Source: Bugula neritina (lineage: Eukaryota; Animalia; Bryozoa). Taken from it: a DNA stretch of 64,000 bases. Below are positions 1-41,039 of the stretch, piece after piece. The stretch spans positions 2,294,001-2,358,000 of the forward strand of contig OZ037770.1 in assembly GCA_964035545.1 (NCBI GenBank), in the 5' to 3' direction. The notes under the pieces were generated by a model, which searched no databases, was not told the origin of the DNA, and saw nothing but the letters and a program-made list of their open reading frames with translations. Positions within the stretch are counted from its first letter, which is position 1. Each line of letters opens with the position of its first letter. The translations under genes were made by a program, and so were the position numbers.

Positions 1-151
1 AAAAACTAAATTTTGCTAATTGTAAGTAGTAAATTTCATTTTTTGGAAAAACACAATAAGCCAACATTTTGCCCATTGTGTTAAAACAATTGAACAATAC
101 ATAGAAAGTAAGGCAAAGATTTTTGCTACAGTAAAAAAATTCTTTTTCTAG

Positions 152-3100
152 GTATCACACAAGAACTCCAGCACAGAAGATTACAAGAAAAAAATTACAC
201 AGCTAGAGAAAGAGGTAATATGATGTTGATACTGAAAACTAAAATAGCAACGCTACAACGGGGTTCCTGCGACACTTGAATATACCGCAAATATTATTGT
301 AATAATATTATTTAACACAATTTAATATAGTGCAGATTTCTTTTTTCTTTCCACTTAGTTATAGTATGTATGTACATGTTTGACATACTATATCTAGGAA
401 GAGAGAAATGAAAACAGGTTTTTAGCAGAGTATTTTGAGAGTTATCTTAATATAGCAATTCGATGATTTTTTCAGTTAGAGAGACAGAGTTTAGAAGCAA
501 AGCACAAAGGAGAGCGACTATTCATTTTAGAAGCAGAGGTAAAAGCTTTGACCTCTTTGTAGACAGCAGAGTCTGCTAGTTGTTCATTAATAATATTATT
601 ATTATGTCTACAGTTGGGAGCTAATTGACTCCATAATTACATTAGCTCCCAACTGTTTGCAAATGGCATTCTGGTTCATATTCAATTGTTTGCTTAGTTA
701 TGATGTCAGTTATTAAACCTGTGTAGTGCATATATACTCATCATACTACAGTGTCACAAATATACACAACACATTTGTGTTTTTAGATAAAGCACAAGAA
801 TCCTGAACTGGCAGCTAGAGAAGAAACGATTTTAGAGCTAGAAGAAAAAGTAATATAATTTTGATAATAATAGTTTTTAATATTCATTTAATGTTTAATA
901 CTTTCTATTACATTAGGTACAGGGTGTTTAATACTCTCTATTACATTAGGTACAGGGTGTTTAATAGTAACTGAAGTTAACTGAGATTTTCAAATGTTAG
1001 CATATCCATGGGTCTATGGGTTCACGACAAATATGCTTACTACTGTGCAAAAAATATTAATTACAAAGTAGTGCAATTAGTATATACAATAATACATTAC
1101 ATGAATATTTAGTTATTTAATATAAAAATTGTTATAGGTTTATCTCTGAAAGCTGAAACAGTATAATACATGTAGCAAAAGCACAAAATAAAACCTGCAT
1201 GAAATAAACAGAATATAGAAATTATTTCTATATGTTTTAATCTTTGCGTATGAATGGCGTTTATATGCATATGTTATCAAAACTACTAATTGAGTAATTT
1301 ATTTAGTCAATTACTATTTTAACCTAACTTTTTCAAAGTACGATGTCCCTCAACGCGGTCTTCAGTTTTTATGGAGTTTGCATTTATTTTATGGCAAATT
1401 GACTAATCGAATACAATTTTTTTAAAAAAAAAGAAATTGTGCATAGCAAACAGTTTCCCTGCTTGAGCACAATTACCTAAATATGAGTACTTATGATAAC
1501 CAAGGTAAACAATGTTTAGTTTGAGCCTTTACATACATTGTATATAAGACGTCTATATAGTGGAATGACAACTCTTGTAATAGTAATATACTACCAGGTA
1601 TGAAATATCTTATTGCAAAAATTAGCTTTTGAATAAGCTGCTAATAATTTTATGAGTGACTTTGAAAGTAAGCAAGTTGGTAGAATAAAAAAATGACAGA
1701 TAAAAACTAAAGGTTTGATAATATGCATTCTTATTTGTAGATAAAAGAAGTTACCACCGAGTTTGAGAGTGTAAAGAGGGACTACTCAGTTGTAAAAATT
1801 CAGGTAATGTTATTTAAAACAATATGTAAATGCTATTCATTCAATTACATTCAGGTACATTAATTCTAGCATATTTTATTGTCTAATTCCTCTATGCCAG
1901 TTTCAATTAATTTGCCGTTTGGATTTAGCTTCATGCTATTGTCAGATACTCCATGTTAAAAATATAATGCAGATGGGAAGAATTTTGTTTCTGTGTAAAT
2001 TGTAGTCCTACAGGTTTAAAGTAATGTACCCTCAGCATCAAAATTTTATTTTGATTCAGCTAATTCCAGTTTTTATTTCATTTAATGTTTTATATTTCTT
2101 TAACAGTCAAAAGGTTTTCTCATTTTTGCTGAAAATTAATAAAGAATTTGCAAGTAACATAAATCAATAAATCAATAAATTTCTCCATTACGTTTGCATT
2201 TTACTAGATCAAGCAGTCCTTACATTATACACTTTTAGGTATGGTACAGAACTTAGTTAATGATTTATGTTTTAATTACATTGTTAGCCTGATACCTACG
2301 CAGTTGGATGAAAATAACAAATAATGTTTTTATAAAATAGGAAATTGTTAATTCAAATGAAAACCTATGTATTTTAGACGGATTATAAAGATGCAGAGAT
2401 AACTAGAATGAAATCAGAGGTATGATTGTTTCTTCACACATCTAGTAGTTTTTATCGGTTTATCAAATGCTTTATTTAACACTGACTGTAACTGACAACA
2501 TTGATAAAGCAACATAATTAAATGAATAACTGCATACTGACAGCATGCCATTGTATTGCAAAAATAATTCAGCAAGGATACTGTGAAGTGAGATTAAATA
2601 TAACAAGAGCTTGGCCTAATATAATGAATGCAAATACCCATAAATATTCTAAAACAATCAAACTGTAATGATATCTATTTTGTCTGGCTAAATTTGACGA
2701 TTATCATATAATATACTAGTTATTGTTAGCTTTTATAGCTCGCACAAGTTTCAAGGCTATAATATAATAATTTCACAAAACTAGCTAAAATTTCCGTTGC
2801 TGCAGCCAATTAATTAATATTAATAATAATTCAAACTATTACATGCAAAATATTTAGCTCATATCTAATAGGTAGTTACAGTTGAACAACTTGTTTTTTT
2901 GAAAAGAGTGCCATTGTCAGCCGTAAATCTAAAACATTGAAAGAAGCATGAAAAACTTTATAATATATGAATTTTAAATGATTGATAAACAAAATATACC
3001 AGAAAAAAAAGACAAATATTGTTGAAATACGGAGAGGGAAATAAATACAATACTGAACCGAAATAGTGTAAGTTTAGATTGAACTCAAACAATTACGTAT

Positions 3101-5465
3101 ATCGGCATCAATGTGTGATTCCTCAAGCTAGCCAACATGTTTTTCTAAAGTTTAGTATTTGTTATGCTATAGCAACAACACTTTTTTAAGTACTAATATA
3201 ACAGTAATCCACTTTTTCTGTTACCATTGTTTCTACATAGATTTGTTAGCAGTTTAAATTATAACACTTTATCTGCTCTTTGTCAATAATAAAGGTGATG
3301 CAGTGCACAGGTTGAAAAATATGGTGATGCATATGCATAACCAACATGTAATTTTTCAGATCGAACAAAAGAATTATGAAATGGCAACAAAAGAAGAAAA
3401 ACTTGAAAAGCTAGCGGAAAAGGTAATATACATATATAGATATTTACACAAACATATACACACATGCATGCACACACAGACACACACTCTTGCTTTTCCT
3501 ACTCTGTTCCATAGCTATTTATTTATTTTTTTCGTACATGGGAAACAGTGCATCTTATAGTTAGGTGAAGTTTGAGGCAATGACAGATGATTCTTGATTT
3601 ATTAGACAACATCAGGTTTAGGTGGAGGGTGAATGAGTTTGATTGGCTGTTACATGTATTCTGTCTTTTTAATGTTGATTTTGAAGCTAATCTGAGGCAT
3701 GCACCGCTTTTGTAAAATTCTTTACTGGCACTTGCATATCTGCAGCGTCATGTGCCACTAAAGGTATTGTTGTTTACAAACAACATCTCTCTGACTAGCT
3801 GTTTGGTAAAGCGAGTATTGGACTTGAACGGATCACATCAAACGGACCAGCTGCATGTCATATTTGAACATAATTCTCTTCATTTACATCCTTAAATGCC
3901 ACTTCAAGCATAGCAATCAGGTATAATGGAAATACACATGCCTGCTTGACAACATTGGTTACTGAAAACTCACTTGAAACTTTTCTACCTTGAACTACCT
4001 TGGGCCTGCGTAGCTGCAGAAAGAATTTTAATAAAGTTGGTGACTTTCTCAGTTAAACCAAACTTCTTTAGTACAGTCTAGAAATCGTTTCTTGATACTG
4101 TATGGAAGGTTTTTGTAAAGTCTATAAATACTGCATATAGCTCCATGTTCTGTTTAGCACATTTCTCTTGAGTTTAGTACAAGCTAATTATCATATCAAT
4201 AGTGTTCTTGTTGTTCCGAGAACCACACTGTGTCTCTGTAAATATTCCTAAAGTTATTTCATATATTGATTCTGTTGAGGATGATACAGGCTAAAATCTT
4301 TGGTCAAGCATTTGAGCGGTTCCCCTGTTCTGTGACCCATACACTTCTTCAAGGCCATTGTAAAATGCAATTTGGCCGATTTGAAATTTCTTTGAGACGT
4401 ATTGAATTGTAAAAGCAACTCTTAAAATTTTTTTGTATTGTGATGACTTGATCAGCCAATGTCAGTATGATACTCATAAGAAGTAATAACTCCTTGTAGA
4501 CATTTTTATTTAGTTATGAATTTGGCGATTAAATGACAGACTTATATGTTAATAATTATATCGTCTACGTCTTCTCAATTATTGCTTTTATGCTGTCAAC
4601 TTCACTAAGTCACAACATTGTCAAAGTGAATCAAATAGGGCTGAGATGAATCAGATTTGACCTTTTAAAAGTAAGCTTCCGCACCGATTTGATTTCAACA
4701 AGTTTCAGTTTGACTATAAAAGGGTAACTGGGCAATTAAGCGTCTGTAACTGAAACTCGGAACTTTTTTCAACAGAGTTATAAACGCAACTTGACACAGC
4801 CTAATTTTGCAGTTTTTCCATATTCAGTTTGCATGCTGAGTTGTCTCTTGTCTTGCTTCGTCCTTTCCTCAATGCAAATGCTAGCTTGAACGTAATCATG
4901 ATATGGTCAGTTGGGCAATCAGCACCTCTCATTGCTCTGGTATCTAGCACATCATTCTGGTCTTTTCGTCTTGTAATCACATAAACCAGAAAGTGACAAT
5001 GCTGAGAACGAGGGTGGCTCCAGGTAACTTAATGATGCTGCCCATACTTGTATGCTGTGTTATTGATAACATACTAGTATTCAAAACAAAATTCCGGTAG
5101 CAGCTCTTCATTTGCATACATTCTCCAATTTTTCGATTACCAATTTTGAAATTGACCCCACACTCTAGCATTAAAGTCACCAGCTAAAATCAGTTTGTCC
5201 GAGGTGGATATATCATTCTTCCCTGTTACCATTATTTTTACATACATGTACGTTAGCAGATCAAATTATAATTATGTACTGTTTTAGGTCGAACAAAAGA
5301 TTGTTGAAATGGCAACTAAAGATAGAAAACTCGAAAAACTGGAAGAAACGGTAACATACATGCATTTATACATGTTTACCTATACATATAATTATATCCA
5401 CACGCATACACTCGCACACACACGCACACACGTGCACGCGCACACACGCGCGTGTGTGCGCGTGC

Positions 5466-5502
<37 letters not shown>

Positions 5503-5865
5503 CATTATGTCTACATAGATTTATTAGCAGTTTATTTGCTAATAAATATATTTACTTGCTCTATGCTATTAAGAAAAGGCAGTGCACAGGTTGAAAATAT
5601 GATGATGATGCATAATCCACGTGTAATTTTTTAGATCAAACAAAAAACTTCTGAAATGATAACTAAAGATAGAAAACTTGAACAACTAGAGAAAACGGTA
5701 ATATGCATATATTCATGTTTAGACACACATATATGTCTTTGCATAGTATAACATATATAAATATATACATGTATATAGTATGGTATATAGTATGGTATAT
5801 AGTATGGTATATAGTATGGTATATAGTATGGTATATAGTATGGTATATAGTATGGTATATAGTAT

Positions 5866-5950
<85 letters not shown>

Positions 5951-6503
5951 TTTCATAGTATATTATATCTAAGAAAGGAATATATATAAAAGCCTCTTAT
6001 AGCTGTATGTCGTTTCTTTATTATATTTAGTTAGAATTGTTCCCCCTGTTTATAGATAAGTATCACAATTATTTTAGGCACACGCTAGCGTGCTATAATG
6101 GCCGTAAACTGTTCAATAACAAAGTACCAGATATGAAAAAATATGTATTTAAAAGTTAGTCTTAAAATTACAACTTCTACATTTAATTCTCAGTCTGTTG
6201 TTACCGCTTCATGGTTTTAGTCAACCTACATTAGATTTGATCTATGTTTGCTTTTATTGGCAGTATTGAATTAAATACATAGTTGTTTCAAATCTATGCA
6301 TTCTTCAAAGTTTTCAAAAGTTATGCAATGTAATCTTATATATTTTATAGGTGGATAAAAACACTTTTCAACTTTCAACGCTCAAGATAGCTGCAGCAGC
6401 ATTCAGAAAAGAACATGGGGGCGCTGGAATATTTGGAGGCCGCTCGGCAATAGCCGAGAAATATTTTTCTAAATTTGATGAGATTTTCAATAATTTAAAA
6501 TAG
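152..6503 (+). CDS. 3' part of a multi-exon coiled-coil protein gene (locus A); probable atlastin/GBP-like GTPase paralog; 5' exons lie before the window
   Basis: AG/GT-bounded phase-0 exons: 152-214 (VSHKNSSTEDYKKKITQLEKE), 476-538 (LERQSLEAKHKGERLFILEAE), 787-849 (IKHKNPELAAREETILELEEK), 1741-1803 (IKEVTTEFESVKRDYSVVKIQ), 2378-2419 (TDYKDAEITRMKSE), 3360-3422 (IEQKNYEMATKEEKLEKLAEK), 5288-5350 (VEQKIVEMATKDRKLEKLEET), 5635-5697 (IKQKTSEMITKDRKLEQLEKT), terminal 6351-6503 (VDKNTFQLSTLK...KYFSKFDEIFNNLK*). The joined frame is open. The family link is indirect: the terminal exon is homologous to those of loci C and D. Confidence 0.85.
893..966. repeat. 33-bp tandem duplication in intron
   Basis: tgtttaatact(t/c)tctattacattaggtacaggg x2 plus a partial copy. 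Confidence 0.8.
3560..5190 (-). mobile_element. Decayed RTE-clade LINE fragment (endonuclease C-terminus plus RT N-terminus), interrupted by a MITE
   Basis: Minus strand reads, with stops and frameshifts, HPRSQH..YVITRRKDQNDVLDTRAMRGADCPTDH (end of APE domain, ~4890-5020), ETQCG..R..TIDMI...QEKC.KQNMELYAVFIDFTK.F.TVSR (RT start, ~4080-4240) and KINIKKTEYM (~3660-3685). Boundaries approximate. Confidence 0.8.
4368..4791 (+). mobile_element. 5'-truncated copy of the ~450-bp MITE family also at 28496 and 62476
   Basis: Aligns by eye to 28540-28942 and ends in TATAAACGCAACT. Confidence 0.8.
5776..5947. repeat. (TAGTATGGTATA)n 12-mer array followed by (TA)n
   Basis: About 7.5 copies of the 12-mer, then ~80 bp of TA. 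Confidence 0.95.
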
Positions 6504-7309
6504 TGACTTATAAGGCCCTCCTTCCGCTGTAAAGAATTAAAGCGAAGTTGTATTTCCTGAGAAGAACTCAAAAACATTTCACTTGCACTGATTGTATTAA
6601 TGATTAATTTTTATAAATTGTAACGTTTTAAGCGAAGAGCCCTTTTTTATCATAGCACTTTAGCTAATGTCAATTCTTGAATTATTGTAATTAAAGCAAT
6701 TTCCTTTTATTACTTTAACTTTAGTTTTTCTGTATTTTTATTACTTTGCTTATAAGTTGAATTAGTTTCTTTTTTGTAATAATTATTAGTATGCTTTAAA
6801 TCATTAGTAGAATTTCAATAATTATAAAATATTGATTTTTACATCATTATCAATAGATCATTGTTCAAAAACAATCTATGTATTCAAGTGGTCCACAAAT
6901 TAAACTTTGAACAATACTGATACTAGTGATTACATAACTCACAAGCAAAAGAACTTTCATTTATACACCAGGATGCAGTATTAATTTCCTACAGTAAAAA
7001 GTTTGTACAAATGTATTGCATTAATTGTGTATTTAGTTCTATATGTGCATAAATAATTGTAACATTATGAGAGGTTTAGGAACAGAAAAAGATCAAAACA
7101 CAAATACAATTTTATTTGTATCACAAATTGTGATGAGTGCATGTAATATTTGGCAGTTTAAAGTCTAAACTAATAAATTAGGGATCAGTAAACATCATAA
7201 TAACTGTTTTGTAATAGTTATTTTTATTTCTTAGCTTTTATACATTTCTTCACAAAGTGTACAAAGAGTTCTAAACTTTTCAATCATTTTTTTTCAACAA
7301 TTGAAAAGA

Positions 7310-7532
7310 AAGCTCATGCAACTTTATAGTCAACATTCCTTTGCATGAAAAAATATCAGATGGAAAGGGGGGTTCTGTTAAATTGGGCTAAGGACCTATT
7401 AAGATGAGGCACAAGAGCAATTATATGACTGGATGCTCTTTCTAACATCGCCAATGAGCCTTGTCAGGGGTCAAACCCATTACCTTGTGCTTATCCTAGG
7501 CAATCTCTCAAACCCCTAGACCTCTGCTGCTC
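7310..7532 (-). mobile_element. tRNA-derived SINE copy (family of 12671)
   Basis: Reverse complement aligns to 12671-12890, including the GTTAG(A/G)AAGAGCATCCAGTC core and the A/B-box head. Confidence 0.8.
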
Positions 7533-9008
7533 CCTGTTCCATACAACAATTGTTTATTGTATAACACCCTCTTCCCTTTCAAGCTATTGAAGGCTTTTTA
7601 TCAAATATATTATTGTTGTTTTTTATCATTAGTTTAAAATTCCTAAACCAAATATACATACCTGCGAGCACAAACACTAGATTATATAAAATAAACGCTG
7701 TTGTTGAAACTGCACGGATGTGTCGTAGAAAATGCAGTTCAGACTCCAAAAATGTCCACTTGTTATATAGTCCCAGATTAATCAAAACAAGCAAGAGCAT
7801 AATATATAACAGAATAAATCTAGTACCTTCACTTCTCCAGTAACTGAGTGACAGATAATCAAATGTAATATAAAAGGTGCACATTTATAGTGGAAATCAG
7901 GCATTCACATGCCGGCTTACATAGCCTGGAGAGGCTACATGACACATCATCAAAATTACCTCACACCGCTACCAATATAGACTCTCAACTATGCACCTGG
8001 ACAATCATATTCACTACTTAAATAAAAATCATCATTGTTTTGTAACAGGCAACGCACTAATATAGAAAGGGTTAAGCAGATATATAAAGTAGACTATGAG
8101 CCGTCGCCTAGTTGTTGGACAGTGGTACTAGCTTAGTATAGATTAGGTTACTAATTAGCTCTTTTATTTATGTCACCCTTTTTGTGATGTAAGTTATATT
8201 TGAAAAGATTATTAGAATCAATAAATATTATATTATACTTTCAATTAAAAGTGTATTATTACCTCTCAACTCTTCTCTAACTCTCTCATGCACAAAGAGT
8301 ACATGTTCAAGCATTAGATCTCATTGCGGTACTTATCAGCTGCATAAATTCACTGCACATTTTAAGTTCGTATGTACTAATATGTTTTATATAAAAAGCC
8401 TGTAATAATAACTCACAGCTCAGACAGTAGCAATAACTGTATTGAGGAAAATTTATTAAGCTATATCTAGAAGTTCATTGGTAGATACAAATAATCCAAA
8501 TATTTGCTAACCCATGACCAATGACAACATTCACACAATGTGTTTACTCTTTAGACGAGAATGCTGATCACTAAATGGGCTGTCAACACAGTTGATTACG
8601 TGAGGGCATAGGTTAGACAAAGTAGAGCAAAAATAATCTGGCTAGATCTGTCATCAAGAGATATTTTAGACTATATATAAGCTTTCTGTAAAGAAGCTGG
8701 TTGTCAATATATCCTCAATATGTAGCGTTAGTCAAATATACAGGCTTTTCTGCAGGTTTATATACACACAAAACGCAGACAGTGCCAATATGTGTGCGTG
8801 CCTAAATATATGTATATTAAAACTGTAGTTCTTATAATTTGTTGTTTAATAATGTCTCCTTTTTGTTTGAACGGAAAAACAAGTATTTTTTCCAAAGGCA
8901 CAGCTTGAAGCATAAAAAACTAGTTTATTTTACTAAATAGATTTGCTTGTTTCAGAAACATCTGTTTGATTGATTGTGTAACGGTATTTTTAAAGTGATC
9001 TATTTTAG

Positions 9009-9560
9009 ACATTATAAAGAAGAACTGGTTAGTCTAATGGAAACTGAGCAAATGGAAAAACTAGCCAGGTATCGAGAATTTGCAGCCAGAGAAGAAATAA
9101 AGACATTAAAAGAACTGGTTGAGAAAGAAAAACAAAAAGCAGCAGAAACAGCAATAAAATTGGAAGATGCAGAGTTAGCAAAAATGAGGCTGTCAAAAAA
9201 ATTGAGAGAACTAGAAACAGCAAGCCAGGCTGAAAAGCGAAAAGCATTGGTGGCAGTAGCAGAGAAACTTGAAGCTGAAATTATACTGAGAATATCAGAG
9301 GCAAAAAACGAGCAGATTGAAAAAGAGAAGAAGGAGCTCGAAGAGATTGCTGAACAAGCGAAAAGAAAAGCAGCAGAAGCAGCAGAAAGAGAAAGAGAAA
9401 CTGCAAATAAAGTTCGTTATCAAGAGCTAAGCAGAATTACAGCAAAAAGTAGATTGGAAGAAATAGAAAGCAGATACAGTAAACTTAAAAAGGAAAAGGT
9501 TTTGCTAGAACAAAGATTAGGAACAAGGAATCATACATTTTTACAATCAGATCTGAGAAG
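9009..9560 (+). CDS. Isolated large coiled-coil exon (locus B), paralogous to exons 13002-13308 and 27597-27906; possibly a gene fragment
   Basis: Acceptor TATTTTAG ending at 9008; phase-2 start R|HYKEELVSL like paralogs R|NYEEIL and R|CYLADL; KAAEAAERERETANKVRYQEL aligns with [20 protein letters not shown] in locus D. Frame open; 3' donor uncertain; no flanking exons found. Confidence 0.6.
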
Positions 9561-9753
9561 TATATGGCAGTTAACTTTCCGTCTTATAGCTTATTTTTTT
9601 CTGCTGCTTTTGTTACTTTTTGAATTATTTAAATGTTTGTTTTAAACTTGACTCAATGAATACATGATTGAAAAGTTTTGATTATTTCAAGATCTATCGA
9701 AAAATTTCCGACTCATTTTTCACAATCTTTGATCTGCAAGTAATACGTAATAG

Positions 9754-10061
<308 letters not shown>

Positions 10062-12977: not shown

Positions 12978-15595
12978 ATATATGTATGTATGTGTGTATA
13001 CTTGCTCTCGAAGTTTAATCAGCTCAAGCTCTTCTGCTTTTAGCTTTTCACGTTCAACTTGAAGCTGGTTTGTAACCTGTGTTGCATATTCCAATTCTTT
13101 TTGATTTTCCATATTTTGTTGCTGTATTTCTTCCCGCTTCTCATCACTTTTTTGAGCGTCTTCCTTAGCCTTATTTGCTGTTTCTTGAGCAGCTACTAAT
13201 TCTTTTTCTACTTCTTTCTTTTTTTTCTCTGTGATGTATCTTTGATATTCTATTTTGATACAGTTTTTGTCAGCTTATATTGCAGACTTTAGAATCTCCT
13301 CATAGTTTCTTACATTAAAAAATGTAGCATAATTAAATGGAACATATAGAAAATATAGCAAATATACAAGTATGCTAAATAGTGTATTGTGTTGCATTTC
13401 AACAGTTTTTTGCTGACTAATTTCATGCATTATTTTTTAGAAAATTGTTGCCAATTAAAATTAATGGTCAGTCGCAACCATATTTTTTTTAAAAAATTAG
13501 CATAATACAAAATACCAGACATTTCCCCTCACTTACTGTGGGATTGAGAAATTTGGCTTTCCATGTTAACTTGAAAGGAAGTTCCTTAATAAAAATTCTT
13601 TAAAAAGTAACTAAACACTATTTCATAATTTCAAAAGAAGTTTTTTATCCATTACAGTGCATAAGCTTCATAATTTTCATCCTGCGTAAGCTTGAAACTG
13701 CAATACGAATTAAACACTAACCATTTTATAGCACAAAATCAGGGTCCACTTTTTTTTCCAAGGTCATACTCTCTTTCAAACGCATCCAAGGCAGATTTCT
13801 CGTGGCTGTTGAGCAGCTAGGTAAGATGTTCCTCAGAAAGAAGAGTTTCAAACTTTTTTTTCTGAAACAAAAAACATTCATATATGTAACTATAAATATA
13901 TTTTTTAATGACATTTTTTGTAACAAATATAAAGACTTGCTGATATGGTTGTTTCTGCAATTATGTTTTATAATACTTTGCTAGTAGTCAATCTATTAAT
14001 GTTTTATAACAATATGTTTCTAATAGCTAAACATTTAGTTAGGTACAGTCTGATAAAATTCAAAGAATAATAAAATTTCCAGCTAAAACTTCTTTTAATC
14101 TTGACTTTTACCCCCACGCATGTTTTCTATTTTATAGCCAGCCTATACCTGCTCTTTCATTAGGGTTCCATAGTGTTGGTGAGCCGAGATATATATTTTG
14201 TTCATAGTCACATCAATTGCAACATCTCTAGTGTTTGGCAAACCATCTTTATGGTTGGCTATCCTCTTTTCAAGTTCCTGAAATTTACCAAATAGGCTAC
14301 AGTCAAATTGTGGGATTTTCCTACCCAAGTACAAGTTTAAGGTTCTGCCTATCACTTCTTTATGTAGTTGTGAGTTCGGTTTGCTGATCTTTTTCTTTTG
14401 TGCCTGTTGCTCGGTAGCATCATTTCATTTGAATTTAACAACTATCCAATTTTTCAATAATCATATATATCTATATTTATCCTTAGGATAAATTCAGAAT
14501 ATTCCATAACAACAAAGGATAGTTATTTTAAACCTGTGTGTTGAAAGATAGATAATCTATCTAAACTCATTTAGGTTGATTGATTAAACAGCCTCGGTTT
14601 TTGAAAAAATATTTGTATTAAATAAAAATGTTCCCTTGCTAAAATATAGATACAATCTATGCTAGCTTGAATAACTAAATTATAAATAGTCAGAATATGG
14701 GCTGAAATTAAAATATTTAAACACTATAACTTTTAGTGTGCTTTTGATGCTAGCAAATAAAGTAGACAATTTGCTTTTGGGAACCATGCTTTTCTCAAGC
14801 ATGTTTCTATATGGTCTGAATAGAACTCAATTAAACCACAAGCTGTTGCGTTATTGCACTTACTTCAAACAGTTTGATTGCAAAAGCCACAGTGCATTGC
14901 TTTTGACCTTTATGGTTGACCAGATAACGGAAAAGAGTTTTACAGTGCTGCAAGAAACTTTCACCAATGTCTTCAGCTGCAAAAAAAATTAAAATTCAAC
15001 AACGAAGTACATTTTATCATCTTTTGATCACTCTCAAATAATACCAAGCAATTTCTGGCCCTAAATTACTTTTTAATAGCATTTGTGTAATAACATTTAG
15101 TAAACCCAACAAGAGGTTCCACATTATGGGTTGATGGTATATTAAGAAAATAAGAATGCAAAAAATTTTTAAAGAATATATTTTGATTATAATACAATAA
15201 TACATGGCATAAGATCACATGGATCTATAGAAATATAGTTCTATGACGATTTCTATTATGTATGTTTTGAAGTTGGCAACAATTAAAATATTGAAAAATA
15301 TTAGCAGCAAGTCTACTAAAAATTATTTCTCACTTTCTATCTGAGAAATTAAATTTGAGCCATCAGACAACTCCTAACAAGTTTTTGGTAGACACTAATG
15401 CAGTGAAAACTACCAATTTGCACATCTTTTTTATGTAACTATAAAATTACCATTAAGCAGCAGTGTCCCTTCTCTAGCCTGGTGACTAGCAAGCTTTGAT
15501 GAAGGAGGAGGCAGGTTGAAGCACGTCACACTTTCAAAACACTTGGAAATTTGATCTAAGGCAGCAATTATTCCATCTTTTGTTGCACTTCCTCC
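12275..15595 (-). pseudogene. Atlastin/GBP-like (GB1/RHD3-family) GTPase pseudogene, C-terminal part (locus C)
   Basis: Six phase-compatible exons: 15595-15451 (..LDQISKCFESVTCFNLPPPSSKLA.., cf. atlastin IHSCFTNISCFLLPHP), 14976-14864 (EDIGESFLQHCKTLFRYL..), 14277-14149 (..DGLPNTRDV..SAHQHYGTLMKEQ), 13861-13722 (..SHEKSALDAFEREYDLG.., stops at 13817-19 and 13739-41), 13308-13002 (coiled coil, stop at 13275-77), terminal 12445-12275. AATAAA on the minus strand at ~12188-12193. P-loop exons not found. Confidence 0.8.
12671..12898 (+). mobile_element. tRNA-derived SINE, near full length, inside a (TA)n tract
   Basis: A-box-like GGTCTAGGGGTTAGAG, B-box GGTTCAAACC, core GGTGATGTTAGGAAGAGCATCCAGTC; at least four other copies in the window. 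Confidence 0.85.
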
Positions 15596-20968: not shown

Positions 20969-23384
20969 ATACGAAAGTAAAATATGTGAATATCTGAATA
21001 GAACCCTGCCACCTGAGGGTTCTTACTGTTGTGTCCTGACTAAATGTGTATATTTGTTTTACTCATTATGTGAAAAGTTAATGCATTTATTTTCTTATTC
21101 ATCATTTTGAGTGCAATATCAGAATGGGCTTGATTGTAAAGCAGTGAGCGAGTTGTCATAGTTAGTGCAGTCAGTGCAAAATAAAACATTTTACTCTTTC
21201 ACATACACGCAATCCATCTTGTTATACTTACTAGAATAGCCATGACAATAAAATGCAGTAACATTTTAATGTGAAAAGTGACAAAAAAAGTACTAAAGAT
21301 ACAAGAAAAGTTGGTGACCCATCGTTGTTGAAATATGTGACAACACAAAGGCAGCAGTGGATTTATGCTTATAGTGTGGCAATCTCTGTAAAATTTTATA
21401 ATGGCTTTAGCAAATGATGATTGAGCTAAATCAAATATTATACCAACATGTTGAATTGCTCCAGCTGCGGTTACCTTGTGGCTATCAATACATTGGCAGT
21501 AAAGTGTCAGTAAGCTAGCTAACAGAACTAAATTAGTACAGCAAATACAGCAAGTACCGCACAGCAGCCAAAAATTGTTCAAGTAGCAAGTAGCAACAGT
21601 TTTATGATTTCAGTCTGGGTTTTTAAATTACAAACAGTTGCTATATGAAATGTACCTATAATATGAAATGGTTGACTAGCTGAATTTGTGGTCCCTGTCA
21701 CTTTAAAGTGCCTTTAAAATTAGAAAATGCTGAGAAAATTTTGTTAAATAATCTAATAATGGCCGAAAGTCTTTGTAACAAATAAAAAATACAACAAAAT
21801 TAATGTCAAAAGCTAAAAAAAAATTTTATGATAAACTCCAACAGCTCAAATGTTAGGTGACTTTGAAGTTGATCAAGTAATGTTTTTCTTTGTATTTCTC
21901 GCAGCCAGTTTGAGTAACTTATAAAAAATTAGTGTTTTCAGCTGGTCATTTTTTTCAAAAGTCATAAAATACTTTTTTTGAAACTTTCTAGCAAAGTACT
22001 TTATACCTGCAGCGCATTTGGAGGTTGCCAGATTATAACTGCTCATTGGGGTAAAACTGCGTATGCCCCAGTAAATCTACAATTATCCTAATGCTTGCAT
22101 ACTGTTCTATTAATAGCCAGGTGCTATTAAGTATAATAACCAGCTATTAATAAACGTCTTTCTACTAATAGCCATTGCTTTCTTACTGATTATGTAAAAT
22201 TTACTCTGTGGGTATTTCTGATTACACAATTTTTATGAGTTGGGATTTCCCAGTGAAATGTAGGTAACTTGTAGCAAACATAATCCTGCAACACTCACCA
22301 GAATGCTTCTGGTGTGAGGCAGCTATAGAGAATTGGTTAATTCAAATATTGCATTTATTATTTCATTATTTTGCATAAAACAGTTACAACTTCTAAACTT
22401 CATTCTGTGCAATGCAGCGGTAAGCCTGTAACCAACCATTTTTTAATCATAGCACACAACAATTAAAATAAACTTATATTGAACTGGTTCCAAAAGTATG
22501 AACCAGCTATATAGGCCAAATGTATACTTGAGCTTAAGCTTTACTACCATCCAATTTTCATGGGAACCTGGTATCAGCGAAAGAAATTGTAATCCTAACT
22601 GTAAACTTGGCTGCAGCCTGTCAAAAGGTTATTGTTGATTAGTTTACAAAATATTACTATTTACTCAAATGAACCAATATTACATAATATTGTTAAGAAA
22701 ATACTTCTGTTTTCGTTGCTTCAAACATATTGTAGGATAATGCAGCAATAACCTCTGAGGCATAAAACCATTGGACTATAACCTATAGTTAAAACTTTTA
22801 AGAATAGCGTACTTAACTGTAGCTTATGTATTTAAAATTACTGATAATTTCTGGAATTGCTTCTCCTGTGATTATCTCCTAAGTATCAAGTGGCACAAAC
22901 CAAGCCCGTATTGTTTTGCTCATATAGCTAAGTTCTATAAGTTCTATATAGCTAGTTCTGTAAGTATGAATTATTCATTTTATTTACTTTCATAAATATT
23001 TGTGTTACATCTATACAGGATTGAGATAAGAATCTTATAGTGCCCACAATATCAAGTAGGTGCAGTAATGGAGATATTGAAAACCACATATAAGAATTTA
23101 CTATACAACATACAACTATAGAATCATCAAAATATAATAATTCTACGAGGTATTAGGAAATACTAGCTGTTCTTGTCTAACACTGCCAACAATACAAAGC
23201 ACTAGTCAGTCCTTGTCTAACAGCTGTATATCCTTAGCTTTCTACACTTCTAAATATGTTAATAGTCACTAGGGCTCATCTAACAAAAGCTAAGAGCTTA
23301 ACTAACAAAATGTTATTAATAAGGATTTTTTTGTTAAAATCTCTATTCCTGCACCTAACTGCACAATATTCTGGTAAAACTTAT

Positions 23385-24090
23385 TTCACTCCTAGACTGA
23401 CACTTATGAAGGAAGAATGTCTAACTAAACCTAGGCACCCACCCAGTATTTATTATTACTCTTGGTGTCATTGCAGTTATCCAATCAGATTTGATAAATG
23501 GGGTGGAGCTTAGTAGTGTGACCCGAATAGACTGGCATATATACTCAACTATTGTGACGTGTGCACAAATACTAGTGAGTCAGAATCAGGCGAAAAAGCA
23601 AGACAGTAATAGGGGTATGAGAGAGAATAATAAACATAAGAGAGTGAATAATGTCTATAACAGAGCAAATAATAGGGGTATGAGAGTGCATAGTGGAGGT
23701 ATGAGACTGAATAATGAGCATAAGAGAGTGAATAATGTCTATAACAGAGCAAATTATAGGGGTATGAGAGTGCATAGTGGAAGTATGAGACTGAATAATG
23801 AGCATAAGACAGAGAGAAATAAGGGTATGGGAATGAATAATGACAGTGTGAGACCAAATAATAGACCTAAGAGCACAAATAATAAGGGTATGAGAGCAAA
23901 TTATAGACCTGTGAGAGCGTTTTGTGAGCATATGAGGGAGAATAATGGTTAGATACTTTATTATAAGCATATGAGATGCAAAAATAAGCTAATTTTTGAC
24001 CATTTGGCACTCCATATCTAACATTGTGAATTAGTCAAAAATTATTTTTGAAGTTTAATTAAACATAATACCTCGTTTTTGAAACATCTA
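23385..24090 (-). mobile_element. Repeat family X copy with an extra 84-bp (4-unit) duplication
   Basis: Reverse complement of ~19865-20440. Confidence 0.8.
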
Positions 24091-25122: not shown

Positions 25123-27495
25123 TCAAAGAGCATCTTCCAATTTTCCAATGTATTTTTTACATAAATCTGAATGACTTATGAAATATCCAGAGATTTCATA
25201 CTCCAAACTAAAGTCTCTTACAACTCTACTGACTGCAGAGAGTCGTGTATTCAGGTTCGAAATTATTGTCTCTTTGCCATCTATCTAAAAACACACATTT
25301 TTATATTCTACACTTTTGAAGAAATAAGTTATGATAAGCATACTATAGTAGTTATCAAATTGGAATGAGTTGACTTGACAAAAAACTAATATATAGTAAT
25401 TTCAGAAAGCAGCGATTTCAACGATAATGAAATGGTTATAGAAAGTTAAAAAAACAAATAAACATAATAAGTGATGTCCTTGTACATGTTCACTTAGGTT
25501 TTATTCAAATTAAAATTAAGCATTAAGGTTGCCTTCAGATTTTTTACACATAGGTTCGTCAATGAGTTAACTCATTTTGCCCGCTCGAGTAGCCTTTGAT
25601 GACTTTACAAGAGGTTGCACTGTGTTCACTTACAATGCATTTGTAAACTAACAACTATTTATTACTCACAATATGTTTTATATAAACTTTTATCTAAAGT
25701 GTCTCCATAAATATTGTCAACTTATTTAATACTCTTGATGTAGCGAGAAACTAGTTTAATAGTTACAATTGTTGCGCCATTCTAAGTTTGTGCAGTAATT
25801 ACTAAAAATACTTTGCCTTAAAATAAATTCTGAATAATTTATCACCAAAATTCTCACACTCTAGAAATTATTGCAGATAGAGAAATTAGATTTAATTATA
25901 TTTTTAAGATCTGCTGTTGATTTAAAAAGAGTTTGATGCATCTGCACCACATTTAGTGTAATGAAATATTAAAACAGAGAGCTCCTGAAAAATTCACTTG
26001 AAATATCAAAATGTACATTATAAGAATGATTCTTTAACCTTTAATCTATGCTGCATAATATAAAAAAGGAAAACAGAGTCATATTTGATTTAATAAATAA
26101 ATGAGTTCTGCTCAGAGCTAATTAAGCCATGTTTTCAGAGAAAAAATTGCCCTCAGATGTCGGTCAACTTATTGTGTAAGTTGAGACACAAACTTATCCA
26201 ACTAGCACTGGCATAGCTAAACAATTATATTTTAATGACGCCAAAAGGCTAACCTAAGACCTGATATGAACCGAGAATAATTTGATGACTACAGAGCTAA
26301 ATTGAATATGCTTATATGCAGCTACTCTCAAACTCAAATATTAATATAAAATTAAGTGATATATCAAACAATTATCACACTAAATAAAAAAAGCTATCAT
26401 GGTCAATTCTCCTGTAAAAATGAAGTCTATAGAAGATAACAATTTTACTAAAGAATAGAGCAAAGATCGACTTGATGAGTGAGATCCTTAAGATGCAGAC
26501 AGATACAAGACACAATACTAATGGTGATAAATACAACAAGAAAAAGTAATTAGATGTCATTTTAAACTTTTATGTTTTCAGCATTATGGTACTAATGTGA
26601 CTTTCCAACTATTATTATTTGTGAAGTTAACTCTCTATTTGATATTATATAAAATAACATAATATTATTTTTGGTCCAATATACTTGCCATAGTTTAACA
26701 TGATGAGATATAAATAAGCAAAAATGCCAATAAACTTTTTATGCAAGCTTACTAGTTATAGGCCAAAATGGTTGTATATATAGACACTCAAACACTCGTG
26801 ATAGTTAATTGAAAGTAATGTTCTAATTGACAAGTTCTATACAACCCTAAGTATGTGATGTGTAGAAACAAATATGCTCCTTTATATACTATTGTAATGA
26901 TTTGATTATTTGTACAAACTTTTGCTCAAAAATCATTCAGTACAGCCTTTAAACTACTCAGATGTATAAGAAATCCAAAAACTTCGAGTTAAATATTTGC
27001 ACTTCAATTGCTCTGATTAAAATAAAGTCAAGCCAAGTAATGTGATTACCTTGTGGTTTAGGTTGGCTATTTGTTGATTTTTCTGGAAGACCTATAAAAA
27101 AAAGTGTATGGCAATAATTTTTAAAATTTTGGGGGAGGTGTGCTTATAACCATTGCACCACGGAGAATACTGGGTAAACTATAAACACTACATGCTGTCG
27201 ACATCTAAATGTTGAATTTCAAAAGTGAATATTACTCAAAAATGTTTAATCTATTATTATTATTACTATTATTATTATTAATATTTTATCAAATATTGAC
27301 TTATTTTTAGTTCAAACATAATTATAAGGAAATTACAATTTACTGACAAAAAGTATGATCAAATGCAAGAAACTAAAATTATGTGAATGAATAGTATAGT
27401 TCATTTCTAAAGATAAATTTCTTTAGAATCATGAGACAATAACACACAAAGAAGACATTTGTTGTTTGCGCAAATTGTTATAATCTACTGTATAG

Positions 27496-27539
<44 letters not shown>

Positions 27540-27906
27540 CCCAAACCTTTTTTTATAGCGAGATATAAATGTAACAAGAGAAATTTTTGCGATTACCTGT
27601 TCTCGTAAGGCAATCAATTCTCTTTCACTTTCTTGAATTCTTGCATCTTCTTTTTCTTTAAGCTTTGTAATTTCTTTTTCGAGTTTGTTGGCTTTGTTTT
27701 TTCTTTCTTCCAGTTCATTTTTTGCTGCAATTGCTTCTAGCTCTGTGAAGTGAAGTTTATTTGCAGTTTATTTTTCTCTTGCAGCTGCTTCTGCTGCTTT
27801 AGCTTCAAGTTCCTCTTTCATTGCTTCCGTTTTCTGAATTCGATATTCACTCTTTACTTTGTTTTTCTCCATATCCAAGAAAGCAACAAGGTCAGCTAGG
27901 TAGCAC
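25123..27906 (-). pseudogene. 3' part of an atlastin/GBP-like paralog (locus D) with a premature stop
   Basis: Exons 27906-27597 (R|[14 protein letters not shown]...AREK*TANK...ELIALREQ; TAA at 27768-70), 27091-27050 (42 nt, VFQKNQQIANLNHK) and terminal 25284-25123 (IDGKETIISNLNTRLSAVSRVVRDFSLEYEISGYFISHSDLCKKYIGKLEDAL*). All are AG/GT bounded and phase compatible. Confidence 0.8.
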
Positions 27907-27908
27907 CT

Positions 27909-28303
<395 letters not shown>

Positions 28304-28359
28304 AATAAGTATACGAGAAACATTGTTGATTTATTACTTCATTAAGTAAAGTAATTATA

Positions 28360-28399
28360 TACTGATATTTCGGGTACCACTGTACCCATCTTCAGAGTA
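28360..28399 (-). ncRNA. Minimal hammerhead ribozyme motif (inverted pLTR copy)
   Basis: Exact reverse complement of 29457-29496. Confidence 0.7.
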
Positions 28400-28495
28400 G
28401 CAATGAATGAAATTCAAAAATTATTACGTTACGTTGGACGTTATGCATGACACAAAGAATAGAGAGTGGCAGTTATTGTAAATTATTAAAACTTA

Positions 28496-28942
28496 AGTTG
28501 CGTTTATACCTTCACGATTTTCGGTCAAAATTTCAATTTGGCCGGGTTGAAATTTCTCCGAGTTTCATTGCATTGTAAAAGCCACCCGTTGAAATTTTTG
28601 TACTGTGATAACTTAATCGGCCAATTTTCAAATAGGAGTAATAACTCCTTGTAAACATCGTTATTTCGCTATTACTTTGGTTATTAGACAATGTACTTAT
28701 ACGGTTATAATTATATAGCCTACACCTTCTCAATTATCGCTTTTATGCTTTCCGCTTTACTAATTCACGACGTTTACAAAGGGCATCAAATAGCTATTAT
28801 GCGAGTCAAATTTCAATTTCGGAAAGTGAGCAACCGCATCAATATGCTTTCAACGAGTTCCAGTTTGACTATAAAGGGGTACCCAGACAAGCATTATTAA
28901 CTTGAACTCGGTACTTTTTTCAGTAGAGGTATAAACGCAACT
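28496..28942 (+). mobile_element. MITE, PIF/Harbinger (Tourist)-like, TTA TSD
   Basis: TIRs AGTTGCGTTTATACCT / AGGTATAAACGCAACT; TTA on both sides; the empty site (AAAAC-TTA-GGGAG) is preserved in the other PLE arm at ~29355-29368. Confidence 0.9.
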
Positions 28943-29456
28943 TTAGGGAGATAATCTTATTTTATATTACGCAGGTCAAAAATTATACTGATTTTCTTGT
29001 ATAAAAATAAGTTAGAGTTGACAAAAAAAATATAGATATCCAAATATAAAAACAGCAAGAATTAGTGACACTATGTGAGAGTTGAGTAGTGTGGAGCTAT
29101 TGATATATGAAATCCACTATCGAAAAGTAGCCGAAGCTCTCTACATTAAACAAATAAAACCGCAACTCAATAAACAAAATTACTCCATACCACTAAAACT
29201 ATATCAATAGCTCCACACTACTCAACTCTCACATAGTTTCACTAATTCTTGCTGTTTTTATATTTGGTTATCTATATTTTTTTGTCAACTCTAACTTATT
29301 TTTATACAAGAAAATCAGTATAATTTTTGACCTGCGTAATATAAAATAAGATTATCTCCCTAAGTTTTAATAATTTACAATAACTGCCACTCTCTATTCT
29401 TTGTGTCATGCATAACGTCTAACGTAACGTAATAATTTTTGAATTTCATTCATTGC

Positions 29457-29581: not shown

Positions 29582-29834
<253 letters not shown>

Positions 29835-30863
29835 TATTAGCTATTCTCACAACCGCAGGGTGTAAAATATTTCTTACTTATATTAACTTTCTCCTAGAAA
29901 GGGTGAAAGAGTTTCACAGTGTAAATGGTGTGCACAAGTTTGGTGGAAAATAAACTCCTTTAAAAATACACCTGTATGAAACTTCAGGCAGGCGGGCAGT
30001 TACGCTTATGAATCTGATAAAATCAGCTGGCAGCTCATAATTTAAGAATGGTTTGTTGCATTTGAAGTTAGTGAAAATAACCAACTGGTATTGAATTAAA
30101 AAGCAAATAATTAGCTTGTCAGCTATATATTTAATAGGATTTTTTTACCTACAATTATCTGTGAACTGCTAAGCTGCATTTTGAACACCACTTATAAAAA
30201 TTTGAGCAATTCTATCCCAAACTAGAAGTTTAAAGCAAACGCTATTCTGTTTGAATAGTTATTATAGGAACTCGCAAGACCAACCAACAAATTTGCTAGG
30301 GATGATTTAGCTTAAAAGTTGATATCAAGATAAAAATCTATCTGGTATAAGTCGTGCACTCTTAGACTGATACTTATAAATGAAAAATGGCTAACTAAAC
30401 CTAGACACCCACCCAGCATTTATTATTACTCTTGGTGTCGTTGCAGTTATCCAATCAGATTTGATAAATGGGGTGGAGCTTAGTAGTGTGACCCGAATAG
30501 ACTGGCATATATACTCAACTATTGTGACGTGTGCACAAATACTAGTGAGTCAGAATCAGGCGAAAAAGCAAGACAGTAATAGGGGTATGAGAGAGAATAA
30601 TAAGCATAAGAGAGTGAATAATGTCTATAACAGAGCAAATAATAAGGGTATGAGAGTGCATAGTGGAGGTATGAGACTGAATAATGAGCATAAGAGAGAT
30701 AGAAATAAGGGTATGGGAATGAATAATGACAGTGTGAGACCAAATAATAGACCTAAGAGCACAAATAATAAGGGCATGAGAGCAAATTATAGACCAATAA
30801 GAGCGTTTTTTTGAGCATATGAGAGAGAATAATGGTTAGATACTTTATTATAAGCATATGAGA
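29835..30863 (-). mobile_element. Repeat family X copy
   Basis: Reverse complement of ~19980-20968. Confidence 0.8.
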
Positions 30864-39042: not shown

Positions 39043-41039
39043 ACTTACAGTACTGATTCTTTCTCTTTCAATTTGGAACTTCGTTGTTTTCTGTTCCAAT
39101 AATTATAATCATAATGCAATAAATTTAAAAGTTACCCAGTGTGAGTGACTAACTAACTACAATTTAGGTTCATTCTTGATGAAAACACTATGAGTATAAC
39201 TATAAGTATTTACTCACTTATAATCGACGCAATAGTAATAAAAAGAAGTTTTGCAATGAATTGGGATCCTAGCCTGGAGCTGGTGAAATTGCATATAGCT
39301 AATTAACACGGGGTATATTATGTTTCTGAATATTATTATATGTATTTAACTGTTAAGAATGTAGTGAACAATATTGGTGTATAGATAATTAGGGTTCACT
39401 ATTACTATGAGTGTCCTAGTCATAGTTGAAAATAAGATGTTCATAATGGTCATTCTCAAAATATAAAAATATATGCATAACCATTAACAAGTTGAAAATA
39501 TTTGTTTAAAATGATTTATAGACCATGGATAACGATGAATAAAGCTATTCAGTCTGTTTATCCCAACTTGAGGCTTTGGCAGAAAAAGGTATCGAGGAAG
39601 ATAAAATCAAAAATGGTACTGAAACAATTTGCAACTTGAAAAACGATGATTGAAAAGGCGTCAAGAAAGTAAGTGCATGTTATACTAACTATGATGAGTT
39701 TTGTAGCTTGGTTTTTAATCAGTTTTCTCCATACACAATATTGAATTTGTTCAATCTTTTAGAATTGTCACAAACCTGTTAGACCAAGCTGAAAATATAA
39801 GTGATGAGTTGAAAAAAGCTGCCTCAGAGCAATTGACAGGTTATTTTTACATCTATTCTAAAGAAAAGTTCTGGTGAATACATAAATGTTGTTTTTGTAC
39901 TGGCACAATTTTTGCTGCACAATTTTGATATGTTCATTTTAGATTTTGATAAACATAACCATCACACAATGATCCTAAATGTTGTAGTACTGTAAATGGC
40001 GAAAATGAAAAATTATTGCGTGAACGTAAAGTTTCCTACCTAATTTTGTATTTTAGCCACCTAATCAACTTGTAAAAACACGAATAAATAATATTAAGTC
40101 CAAATTAGGCTTTTTACAGCCAATAAGCACCTGATAATATTCATGTATTTATGGCTCATAGAATGTAATGAATTGTACATACAACTTCTTTATCTCACTT
40201 TCAAAATACTGTCAGACACCTATATATATGCTAACTTTTTTACTACAATTTAAGGCTGTTTATGTTTTCAGATGTTCAACAATTGTTAGAACTCCTTGAG
40301 CAGTATGCCCGACAGCCTCAAAGAGCACCAATGTATATAGAGGCTACCTCAGTTAAATGGGACAAAATCCGATCAATTCTTCATAGGAATACAATTACTG
40401 GCATGGGAACTAGGAAACTCTTGATTAGTAGGTAATTTTTAGTAACTTTTATTTTAATTAACCAGCCATCACCAATTTTAGGTGTTGTTACTATTATTTT
40501 GCATTTTTTATACCCAACAATTTATAATGTGTTGTTTTAAGCTAAAACACTGTTTTAGCTTGTAATCTATGTTTTAGGTGAAAGGCTGTCTCTACTCCCA
40601 TCAACTTGCCAATTGTGTAACAATACAATGGTTAAAAAATTTGTAGCTTACACCCTCAAAGTCATCTCTATAATCAATGGTAAATTATTCAAATTGTCCA
40701 ATCAAATTCTAAAAAATATTTGGGTCATTTGTGTTTCAAATAATCGCTAGTATTTTATATTATATTTAAGTGAAGTGAAATTATTGGTCATCTATGTTTA
40801 TTCAATCAGTTGTCAATTATGCATTTATCTGTTACATGATAACTTCTAGAGTATACATATAATTTCTTAACATTTTTGCCTTATTTAGCTATTGTTATAA
40901 TTTGCTTCTCACAATTTCATATATTGACACTATCTTTTTTCTAGGGCGCACTGAAACGGTGATTCTCCTTATTGTGAGCTATGCTCATGGACACGTGTTC
41001 AAGTGAGTGAAAATTTTCCTAAACTCAGGCTGTGGCCAC

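What the first reader, a model, noticed from the sequence alone, without database searches (positions are those of the whole stretch)
152..6503. Coiled-coil tail assembled from heptad-quantised, phase-0 exons
Seen: all eight internal exons are 63 nt (21 aa) or 42 nt (14 aa), all phase 0 and in one register, with hydrophobic residues at exon positions 1, 8, 15 and 18 and often Lys at 4. Locus D has a 42-nt exon of the same kind and locus C has none, so paralogs differ in module number. Inference: adding or skipping any exon preserves both frame and heptad register, giving a rod whose length can be tuned in ~2-3 nm steps by exon duplication or alternative splicing. That would be a molecular-ruler tail on a putative large GTPase.
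Basis: partly seen in the sequence, partly recalled or inferred. Interest (0 to 1): 0.78.

Follow-up and report, generated by a model that had tools for sequence, protein, structure and literature searches.

The report
Coiled-coil tail built from heptad exons
Eight small exons, each exactly two or three seven-residue repeats long, encode a predicted helical rod at the end of a gene that is likely a GBP/atlastin-like GTPase; RNA contigs, likely from sister copies, confirm five of the eight splice joints and the rod likely grew by exon copying, but tuning of its length by splicing is not shown and a similar design is known from chicken BG genes.

Summary
Eight exons (seven of 63 nt, one of 42 nt) and a 50-codon last exon have GT-AG introns, phase 0 and one heptad register: 20 of 23 'a' positions are hydrophobic, 'd' is half Leu-type and half Lys/Arg. 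RNA contigs of one public run join exons 1-6 in register (5 of 8 junctions), but they are diverged and likely come from paralogs. Exons 6-8 are tandem copies that include their intron flanks, so growth by exon duplication is shown. One RNA contig continues after an exon-6-like module into a module absent from this copy, so module content likely differs between paralogs. No exon skipping was shown; one joint is ambiguous. The GTPase head lies outside the window and was not seen. It is inferred from three decayed neighbours with only weak GBP/atlastin hits (E 0.11-0.25, within the range of chance hits). Heptad-sized exons with variable number are known from chicken BG genes. New here are the phase-0, 2-3-heptad modules and the likely large-GTPase host. 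The ruler function is untested. New variant of a known kind; interest 0.45.

The parts
152..214 (+). module exon 1, 63 nt, phase 0-0
   Evidence: joined to exon 2 in RNA contigs
476..538 (+). module exon 2, 63 nt
   Evidence: joints to exons 1 and 3
787..849 (+). module exon 3, 63 nt; 70% nt identity to exon 6, likely an older duplicate
1741..1803 (+). module exon 4, 63 nt; least like the other modules in composition (leave-one-out score -0.73) but strongest a/d contrast
2378..2419 (+). module exon 5, 42 nt (two heptads)
   Evidence: a 36/42-identical version fills the exon 4-6 joint of an RNA contig
3360..3422 (+). module exon 6, 63 nt; tandem duplicate family with exons 7 and 8
5288..5350 (+). 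module exon 7, 63 nt; copy of the exon 6 unit with intron flanks; no RNA support obtained
6351..6503 (+). predicted last exon: helix, Gly-rich linker, amphipathic helix, stop; no CaaX, no transmembrane segment
   Evidence: 82% identical relative P0001
3600..5200 (.). dispersed repeat(s) inside the intron between exons 6 and 7 (approximate limits)
   Evidence: self-match to 28528-28943 and 62476-62896; very deep cover in all three runs
9009..9645 (+). neighbour B: long coiled-coil exon with an internal duplication, homologous to D's long exon; the candidate exon before it carries stops
13002..13308 (-). neighbour C: long coiled-coil exon with an in-frame stop, ending phase 0 in the module register; no module candidate after it in the top list
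15449..15580 (-). neighbour C: piece with a weak match to the GBP/atlastin GTPase domain
   Evidence: Pfam GBP E 0.16; 13 of 13 PDB hits are atlastins, best E 0.11
27597..27906 (-). neighbour D: long coiled-coil exon with an in-frame stop, ending phase 0 in the module register
27050..27091 (-). neighbour D: 42-nt module-like exon candidate
   Evidence: best of 63 non-A candidates, score 0.45
25222..25284 (-). neighbour D: possible 63-nt module exon (weak)
   Evidence: second of 63 non-A candidates, score 0.09, barely above a glutamate synthase exon at 0.05

Best explanation
This is the 3' end of one member of a multi-copy gene family whose predicted coiled-coil tail is written in phase-0 exons of two or three heptads and has grown by tandem exon duplication, likely behind a GBP/atlastin-like GTPase head and likely differing in module content between copies in the DNA rather than by regulated splicing. 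Shown: the exons, their common register, five junctions in RNA contigs, and the duplication of the exon 6-8 unit. Inferred: because every module starts at heptad position 'a' and has phase 0 at both ends, a copied or lost exon leaves frame and helix register intact, so such changes survive and rod length drifts or is selected in steps of 2.1 or 3.1 nm (about 24 nm for the 161 residues seen). Inferred: the rod acts as a spacer between the head and a conserved C-terminal cap whose last helix is amphipathic and would bind a membrane or a partner, as the extended C-terminal helices of GBP1 hold its GTPase domain away from the membrane.
For: Exons, register and controls. RNA run X2 covers 10 of 30 bins, mostly over exons, and one 278-nt contig runs exon 2-3-4-5-6 with spacings of 63, 63 and 42 nt; its changes at module starts keep 'a' hydrophobic (L to V, I to L, T to M, I to M; read). 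Duplication: exons 6/7/8 are 76-79% identical and their flanks 73-83%. Paralogs: DNA run X3 holds a near-identical copy (2 differences in 816, 10 in 2063) plus diverged contigs over exons 4 and 5, which share several of the RNA contigs' differences; P0001 is 82% identical to the last exon with 7 of its 8 visible differences in the first 24 residues. After an exon-6-like module one RNA contig continues into a module not found in this copy (at most 16 of 28 letters match any exon start), while two others continue into an exon 7/8-like one. GTPase link: C's weak GBP/atlastin hits; B-D and C-D long exons are homologous (p 0.001 each) and C and D end phase 0 in the module register; D is followed by the two best module candidates outside A; 18 of 19 letters of that RNA continuation match the end of B's long exon (p 0.001 against B, 0.007 against the + strand).
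Against: The exon upstream of base 152 was never seen, so no head domain is tied to this gene. The GBP hits (E 0.11-0.25) are no better than chance: 17 of 101 ORFs scanned had a Pfam hit with E 0.016-0.25, only one of them GBP, and four other C queries and a B/C/D profile found no GBP or atlastin in the PDB. B-C homology is not significant (p 0.12). A's exons show little direct similarity to the B/C/D long exons (2 of 27 pairs at p<0.02, where C's and D's limits were slightly off). The RNA contigs differ from the window by 3-16% per exon, so this copy's expression is not shown; B, C and D look decayed. Among exons 6-8 changed codons are mostly non-synonymous (7:4, 10:2, 7:4) and exons are no better kept than their flanks. 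The last exon has no CaaX or transmembrane anchor, and its hydrophobic moment (0.47) is below the best window in the rod (0.57).
Confidence: 0.55

Rival explanations
1. Splice-tuned ruler: one gene makes rods of several lengths by skipping modules, and the length sets a working distance such as the thickness of a GTPase coat on a membrane.
For: Any subset of exons keeps frame and register. Donors of exons 3, 7 and 8 score low against a small matrix trained on 10 glutamate synthase donors. One RNA joint (1791 to 3377) has unknown letters between and could lack exon 5. Human GBP1 forms a coat of 29.6 +/- 3.1 nm (PMC11746146, section 9 read).
Against: None of the other 5 listed joints skips an exon, and the apparent exon 4-6 skip is filled by a diverged exon 5. 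Contigs drop rare variants, so this is weak. No function was tested.
Confidence: 0.15
2. The modules belong to a different gene (for example a receptor or scaffold with a BG-like coiled-coil tail) that merely lies beside decayed GBP-like copies.
For: The head was not seen; the last exon has no counterpart in B, C or D; GBP evidence is at chance level; BG genes show that such tails sit on non-GTPase proteins (PMC5938342, passages).
Against: D's long exon is followed by the two best module candidates outside A, C and D end in the same phase and register, and an RNA continuation matches B.
Confidence: 0.2
3. This copy is a decaying duplicate, and module number is a neutral by-product: register-keeping duplications are simply the ones that do no harm.
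For: Neighbours carry stops; RNA contigs match other copies better; near-neutral codon change among exons 6-8; a repeat element sits in intron 6.
Against: 211 codons without a stop and 8 of 8 canonical introns; 5 of 6 core positions but only 5 of 15 others are invariant across exons 6-8 (read; one-sided Fisher p about 0.055 by hand); the last 26 residues differ at 1 place from P0001.
Confidence: 0.1

Closest known systems
Chicken BG (B-G) genes, butyrophilin family (PMC5938342 and PMC4046983, passages read)
   Same: Multigene cluster; predicted coiled-coil tail encoded by heptad-sized exons; exon number varies between paralogs (13 to 36 in one haplotype) and alleles, including a four-exon insertion.
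   Different: BG exons are 21 nt (some 18 or 24) with a split first codon, so the true heptad straddles exons; here they are 42 or 63 nt, phase 0, and start at 'a'. BG tails follow an Ig-V domain and a transmembrane helix, and intron read-through is documented; here the head is unseen (likely a GTPase) and no alternative splicing is shown.
Guanylate-binding proteins and atlastins (GBP1: PMC11746146, passages and section 9 read)
   Same: Neighbour C has weak GBP/atlastin matches in the expected order (GTPase piece, then long helical exon); GBP1 uses an outstretched C-terminal helical region to bind membranes and form a coat about 30 nm thick.
   Different: No CaaX or transmembrane anchor at this gene's end; a tail of tandem heptad exons was not found described for this family; membership of this gene is untested.
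Brown algal ROCO GTPases (PMC11378527, abstract read)
   Same: A GTPase family with one repeat per exon, exon shuffling and a proposed immune role.
   Different: The repeats are LRRs that vary a binding surface, not heptads that set a length; alternative splicing is reported there.
Schistosome micro-exon genes (search listing only) and the CD23 stalk (exon structure recalled, not confirmed)
   Same: Short exons in series (MEG: 3-81 bp per the listing); CD23 has a heptad coiled-coil stalk (PMC6791321, passages) whose 21-residue repeats are, from memory, one per exon and differ in number between mouse and human.
   Different: MEG products are secreted and not heptad-sized; CD23 is a C-type lectin receptor. 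No sequence relation to either was found or sought.

Membership tests
GBP/atlastin large GTPases | N-terminal GTPase domain (PF02263) with G1-G4 motifs in the same transcript | not testable with these tools
   Upstream exons lie outside the window; no genome is held; the RNA contig over exon 1 reaches only 5 letters upstream.
GBP/atlastin large GTPases | Helical middle/GBP_C domain contiguous with the tail | tested here: inconclusive
   Only indirect: C's long exon hits GBP_C at E 0.25 but not when trimmed; C and D end in the module phase and register; 18/19-letter RNA link to B.
GBP/atlastin large GTPases | Neighbouring paralogs score as family members | tested here: inconclusive
   One C piece: Pfam GBP E 0.15-0.16, atlastin E 0.11, below the curated cut-off and inside the chance range. 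My reading of other C pieces as GBP-like rests on recalled motifs and got no hits.
GBP/atlastin large GTPases | C-terminal CaaX (some GBPs) or transmembrane anchor (atlastins) | tested here: not met
   The last exon ends NNLK-stop with no hydrophobic segment; not all GBPs carry CaaX (PMC11746146: three human GBPs do).
Chicken BG / butyrophilin | Tail encoded by 21-nt exons with a split first codon | tested here: not met
   Exons are 42 or 63 nt and phase 0.
Chicken BG / butyrophilin | Ig-V domain and transmembrane helix before the tail | not testable with these tools
   5' part outside the window.
Chicken BG / butyrophilin | B30.2 domain after the heptads (butyrophilins) | tested here: not met
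   Last exon is 50 residues with no Pfam family, no meaningful PDB sequence hit and no fold match.
Two-stranded or trimeric coiled coil | Continuous hydrophobic a/d heptad stripe | tested here: met
   Period 3.5, one register, 1 Pro and 1 Gly in 161 residues; 'd' is Lys/Arg in 11 of 23. Folding and oligomer state were not modelled.

The most novel reading that the evidence does not exclude
An invertebrate family of GBP/atlastin-like immune GTPases carries a tail whose length is set digitally by gain, loss and skipping of 2-3-heptad exons, so that paralogs and isoforms hold the GTPase head at different distances (2-3 nm steps, up to about 24 nm extra) from the membrane they coat: a natural series of molecular rulers for reaching through microbial surface layers of different thickness.
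Probability: 0.12. Interest if true: 0.8.

Novelty: new variant of a known kind. Interest (0 to 1): 0.45.

Why it matters
How the length of the helical stalk affects coating, tethering or membrane remodelling by dynamin-like GTPases is usually probed with engineered proteins. If the head is a GBP/atlastin-type GTPase, this family would be a natural length series with a built-in 7-residue quantum, and would make the question directly testable. If not, it is still a clean, RNA-supported, probably independent case of the heptad-exon design known from chicken BG genes, with the exon boundary placed exactly at position 'a'.

Tried and rejected
No whole genome is held, so upstream exons and paralog counts could not be read. 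Three word-based protein searches for longer relatives found none: last exon, B's long exon, module profile; the tool calls such blanks weak evidence. The HMMER search of representatives gave one real relative (P0001) and one likely chance hit, P0002 at E 2.5e-4 over 21 residues of a repetitive protein. Cluster look-up could not be made. ESM Atlas: nothing usable for the last exon, generic coiled-coil clusters for B. Locus scans of metagenome contigs and prokaryote genomes found nothing. Run search: no RNA holder on record was listed; X1 and X2 are guessed RNA. X1 laid nothing on the exons. No run covered the exon 7 bin, DNA run X3 included; the tool says a hole proves nothing, so I do not read it as a copy-number difference. 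Summed contig depth was not used as a copy number. The AlphaFold model of the last exon (pLDDT 69, pTM 0.32) found no Foldseek match. A tblastn hint that 16719-16672 is a paralog of the last exon was dropped as chance. B's hydrophobic C-terminus was considered as a tail anchor; it may instead be T-rich intron read-through after a decayed donor (inference). The joined rod could not be folded, since the folding tools take only unbroken stretches.

Full report
Setting. The window is AT-rich eukaryotic DNA (GC 0.24-0.38) with spliceosomal introns and an intron-rich glutamate synthase gene at 55314-63479 (Pfam GATase_2 E 9e-41; 462 codons without a stop when joined). I take it for an invertebrate animal; this is inference, and no call established the taxon. 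No whole genome is held.

The observation. Seven are 63 nt and one is 42 nt, all open in frame 0, and 8 of 8 introns are GT-AG. A blind scan for AG...GT segments found no other 42- or 63-nt candidate on the + strand of 1-10000. Read in sevens from each exon start, position 'a' is hydrophobic in 20 of 23 heptads, 'd' in 11 of 23 with 11 Lys/Arg, and 'e' and 'g' are mostly charged. The strongest period is 3.5, and 0 of 20000 joins with random register reach the observed contrast (p 0.0001-0.0002 when duplicated exons are dropped). Seven of 8 exons prefer this register when taken alone. As a control, 5 of 9 internal glutamate synthase exons are phase 0-0 but only 1 of 9 is a multiple of 21. Phase 0 is therefore ordinary here, and the 21-nt quantum with a fixed start at 'a' is the real signal.

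RNA evidence. Three runs were listed and all three were laid on 1-5395 and 1-3590. X2, an RNA-seq library by its description, gave 14 records with cover in 10 of 30 bins, mostly over exons. Its joints match introns 1 (261 nt), 2 (248 nt) and 3, and one 278-nt contig runs from exon 2 to exon 6 with spacings of 63, 63 and 42 nt, the 42 being a version of exon 5 identical at 36 of 42 letters. So 5 of 8 junctions are supported; the three downstream of exon 6 were not tested. The contigs differ from the window by 2 to 9 letters per exon. Six of their differences (187, 524, 1752, 1756, 1780, 1782) also stand in secondary contigs of the DNA-like run X3, whose main contigs match the window closely (2 differences in 816, 0 in 133, 2 in 636, 10 in 2063). 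The transcripts therefore likely come from paralogs, and expression of this copy is not shown. Of 6 listed joints none is a clear skip. One (1791 to 3377) has unknown letters between and stays open.

Variation in modules. Exons 6, 7 and 8 are 76-79% identical, and the similarity extends into both flanking introns, so the exon was copied with its splice sites. Exon 3 is 70% identical to exon 6 and is likely an older copy. In X2, two contigs continue after an exon-6-like module into an exon 7/8-like sequence (a mixed consensus, agreement 0.63; 19-20 of 30 letters match). A third continues into an in-register module that matches no exon start of this copy by more than 16 of 28 letters. Module content thus likely differs between copies. 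All 256 subsets of the eight exons keep the frame to the natural stop; the 161 residues would span about 24 nm, in steps of 3.1 and 2.1 nm at 0.1485 nm per residue, a standard value. Against strong selection on module sequence: changed codons among exons 6-8 are mostly non-synonymous and the exons are no better kept than their alignable flanks. Core positions are better kept (5 of 6 invariant against 5 of 15, read). This fits a spacer in which length and core matter more than surface, and it also fits relaxed selection.

The C-terminal cap. The last exon is predicted as helix 3-23, a Gly-rich linker and helix 33-49 (pLDDT 69, pTM 0.32, single sequence). It has no Pfam, meaningful PDB or fold match. 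One relative, P0001, is 82% identical, with 1 difference in the last 26 residues. The last helix is amphipathic (moment 0.47), though less so than the best window of the rod (0.57). There is no CaaX or transmembrane segment. Membrane binding by this helix is a guess.

The GTPase question. The head was not seen. Three neighbours carry long coiled-coil exons: B (9009-9645, +), C (13308-13002, -) and D (27906-27597, -). B-D and C-D are homologous (p 0.001 each); B-C is not significant (p 0.12). C and D contain stops and end phase 0 in the module register. D is followed by the two best module-like candidates among 63 outside locus A, though the second scores barely above a glutamate synthase exon. 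One piece of C matches Pfam GBP at E 0.16, and 13 of 13 PDB hits are atlastins at best E 0.11; C's long exon matched GBP_C at E 0.25. These are weak: 17 of 101 ORFs scanned had Pfam hits of similar strength, only one to GBP, and five further PDB searches of C pieces or a B/C/D profile found no family member. I picked the C piece beforehand from recalled GBP motifs, which counts for something but is not a test. The one sequence link from the module family to these loci is the third RNA continuation, which matches the end of B's long exon at 18 of 19 letters, the only match in the window with up to 3 mismatches (0.06 expected; shuffle p 0.001 against B, 0.007 against the + strand), in a frame shifted from B's ORF. 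I put a GBP/atlastin-like head at about 0.7.

Comparison with what is known. Chicken BG genes encode a coiled-coil tail in 21-nt exons whose number varies between genes (13 to 36 in one haplotype) and alleles, with intron read-through shortening it (PMC5938342, PMC4046983; passages read; their supplements were not opened). [quoted passage not shown] The design is therefore known and this is a variant of it. Brown algal ROCO GTPases have one LRR per exon with shuffling and alternative splicing (PMC11378527, abstract). Human GBP1 binds membranes in an outstretched form and builds a coat of 29.6 +/- 3.1 nm (PMC11746146, passages and section 9), which is why a variable tail on such a protein would matter. 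Searches (listings only) showed no paper on heptad-exon tails in GBP/atlastin-like genes; the library lacks most subscription papers. The CD23 precedent is recalled and was not confirmed. Earlier notes of this scan list similar heptad-exon rods in other genomes; they are unchecked and only suggest that the design recurs.

Verdict. Growth by exon duplication is shown. Splice tuning, the GTPase head and the ruler role are not. New variant of a known kind, interest 0.45. The bold reading, a length-graded family of immune GTPases, has a probability of about 0.12 and would deserve 0.8.

Noticed in passing
window:9009-9645 (+): B's long exon holds two similar halves of about 87 residues, an intra-exon duplication and so a second way of lengthening the rod; its ORF ends in a Leu/Phe-rich stretch that may be a tail anchor or intron read-through.
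   Followed up: partly
window:19866-20970, 23371-24090, 29832-30863: Three copies of a repeated element (86-97% identical, the first inverted) with an internal 21/42/63/84-nt tandem array that reads as an ORF of 7-residue repeats rich in R, G, M and N; unrelated to the exon modules as far as seen.
   Followed up: no
window:28028-29837: Near-perfect inverted duplication (28028-28495 with 29837-29361; 28943-29107 with 29363-29200) just upstream of D's long exon; it may have truncated D or be an assembly fold-back.
   Followed up: no
window:31741-32587: About 550 bases of TAC/TGC trinucleotide repeat giving a long Thr/Ala ORF on the + strand.
   Followed up: no
window:38230-38874 (+): 215-residue ORF that looks, from memory, like the C-terminal part of a LINE reverse transcriptase; not scanned.
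   Followed up: no
window:39500-45000 (+): Several exon-like segments of an unidentified gene; the one piece scanned (40235-40432) has no Pfam hit.
   Followed up: partly
window:55314-63479 (+): 5' part of an intron-rich glutamate synthase gene, used as control; at 60765-60925 a 41-nt tandem repeat in four copies duplicates an exon end together with its donor site, giving extra candidate donors.
   Followed up: partly
window:5221-5395: No contig of any of the three runs covered the exon 7 bin, although DNA run X3 covers 29 of 30 bins; either a filter effect next to the CA/GT repeat or absence of this copy in that individual.
   Followed up: no
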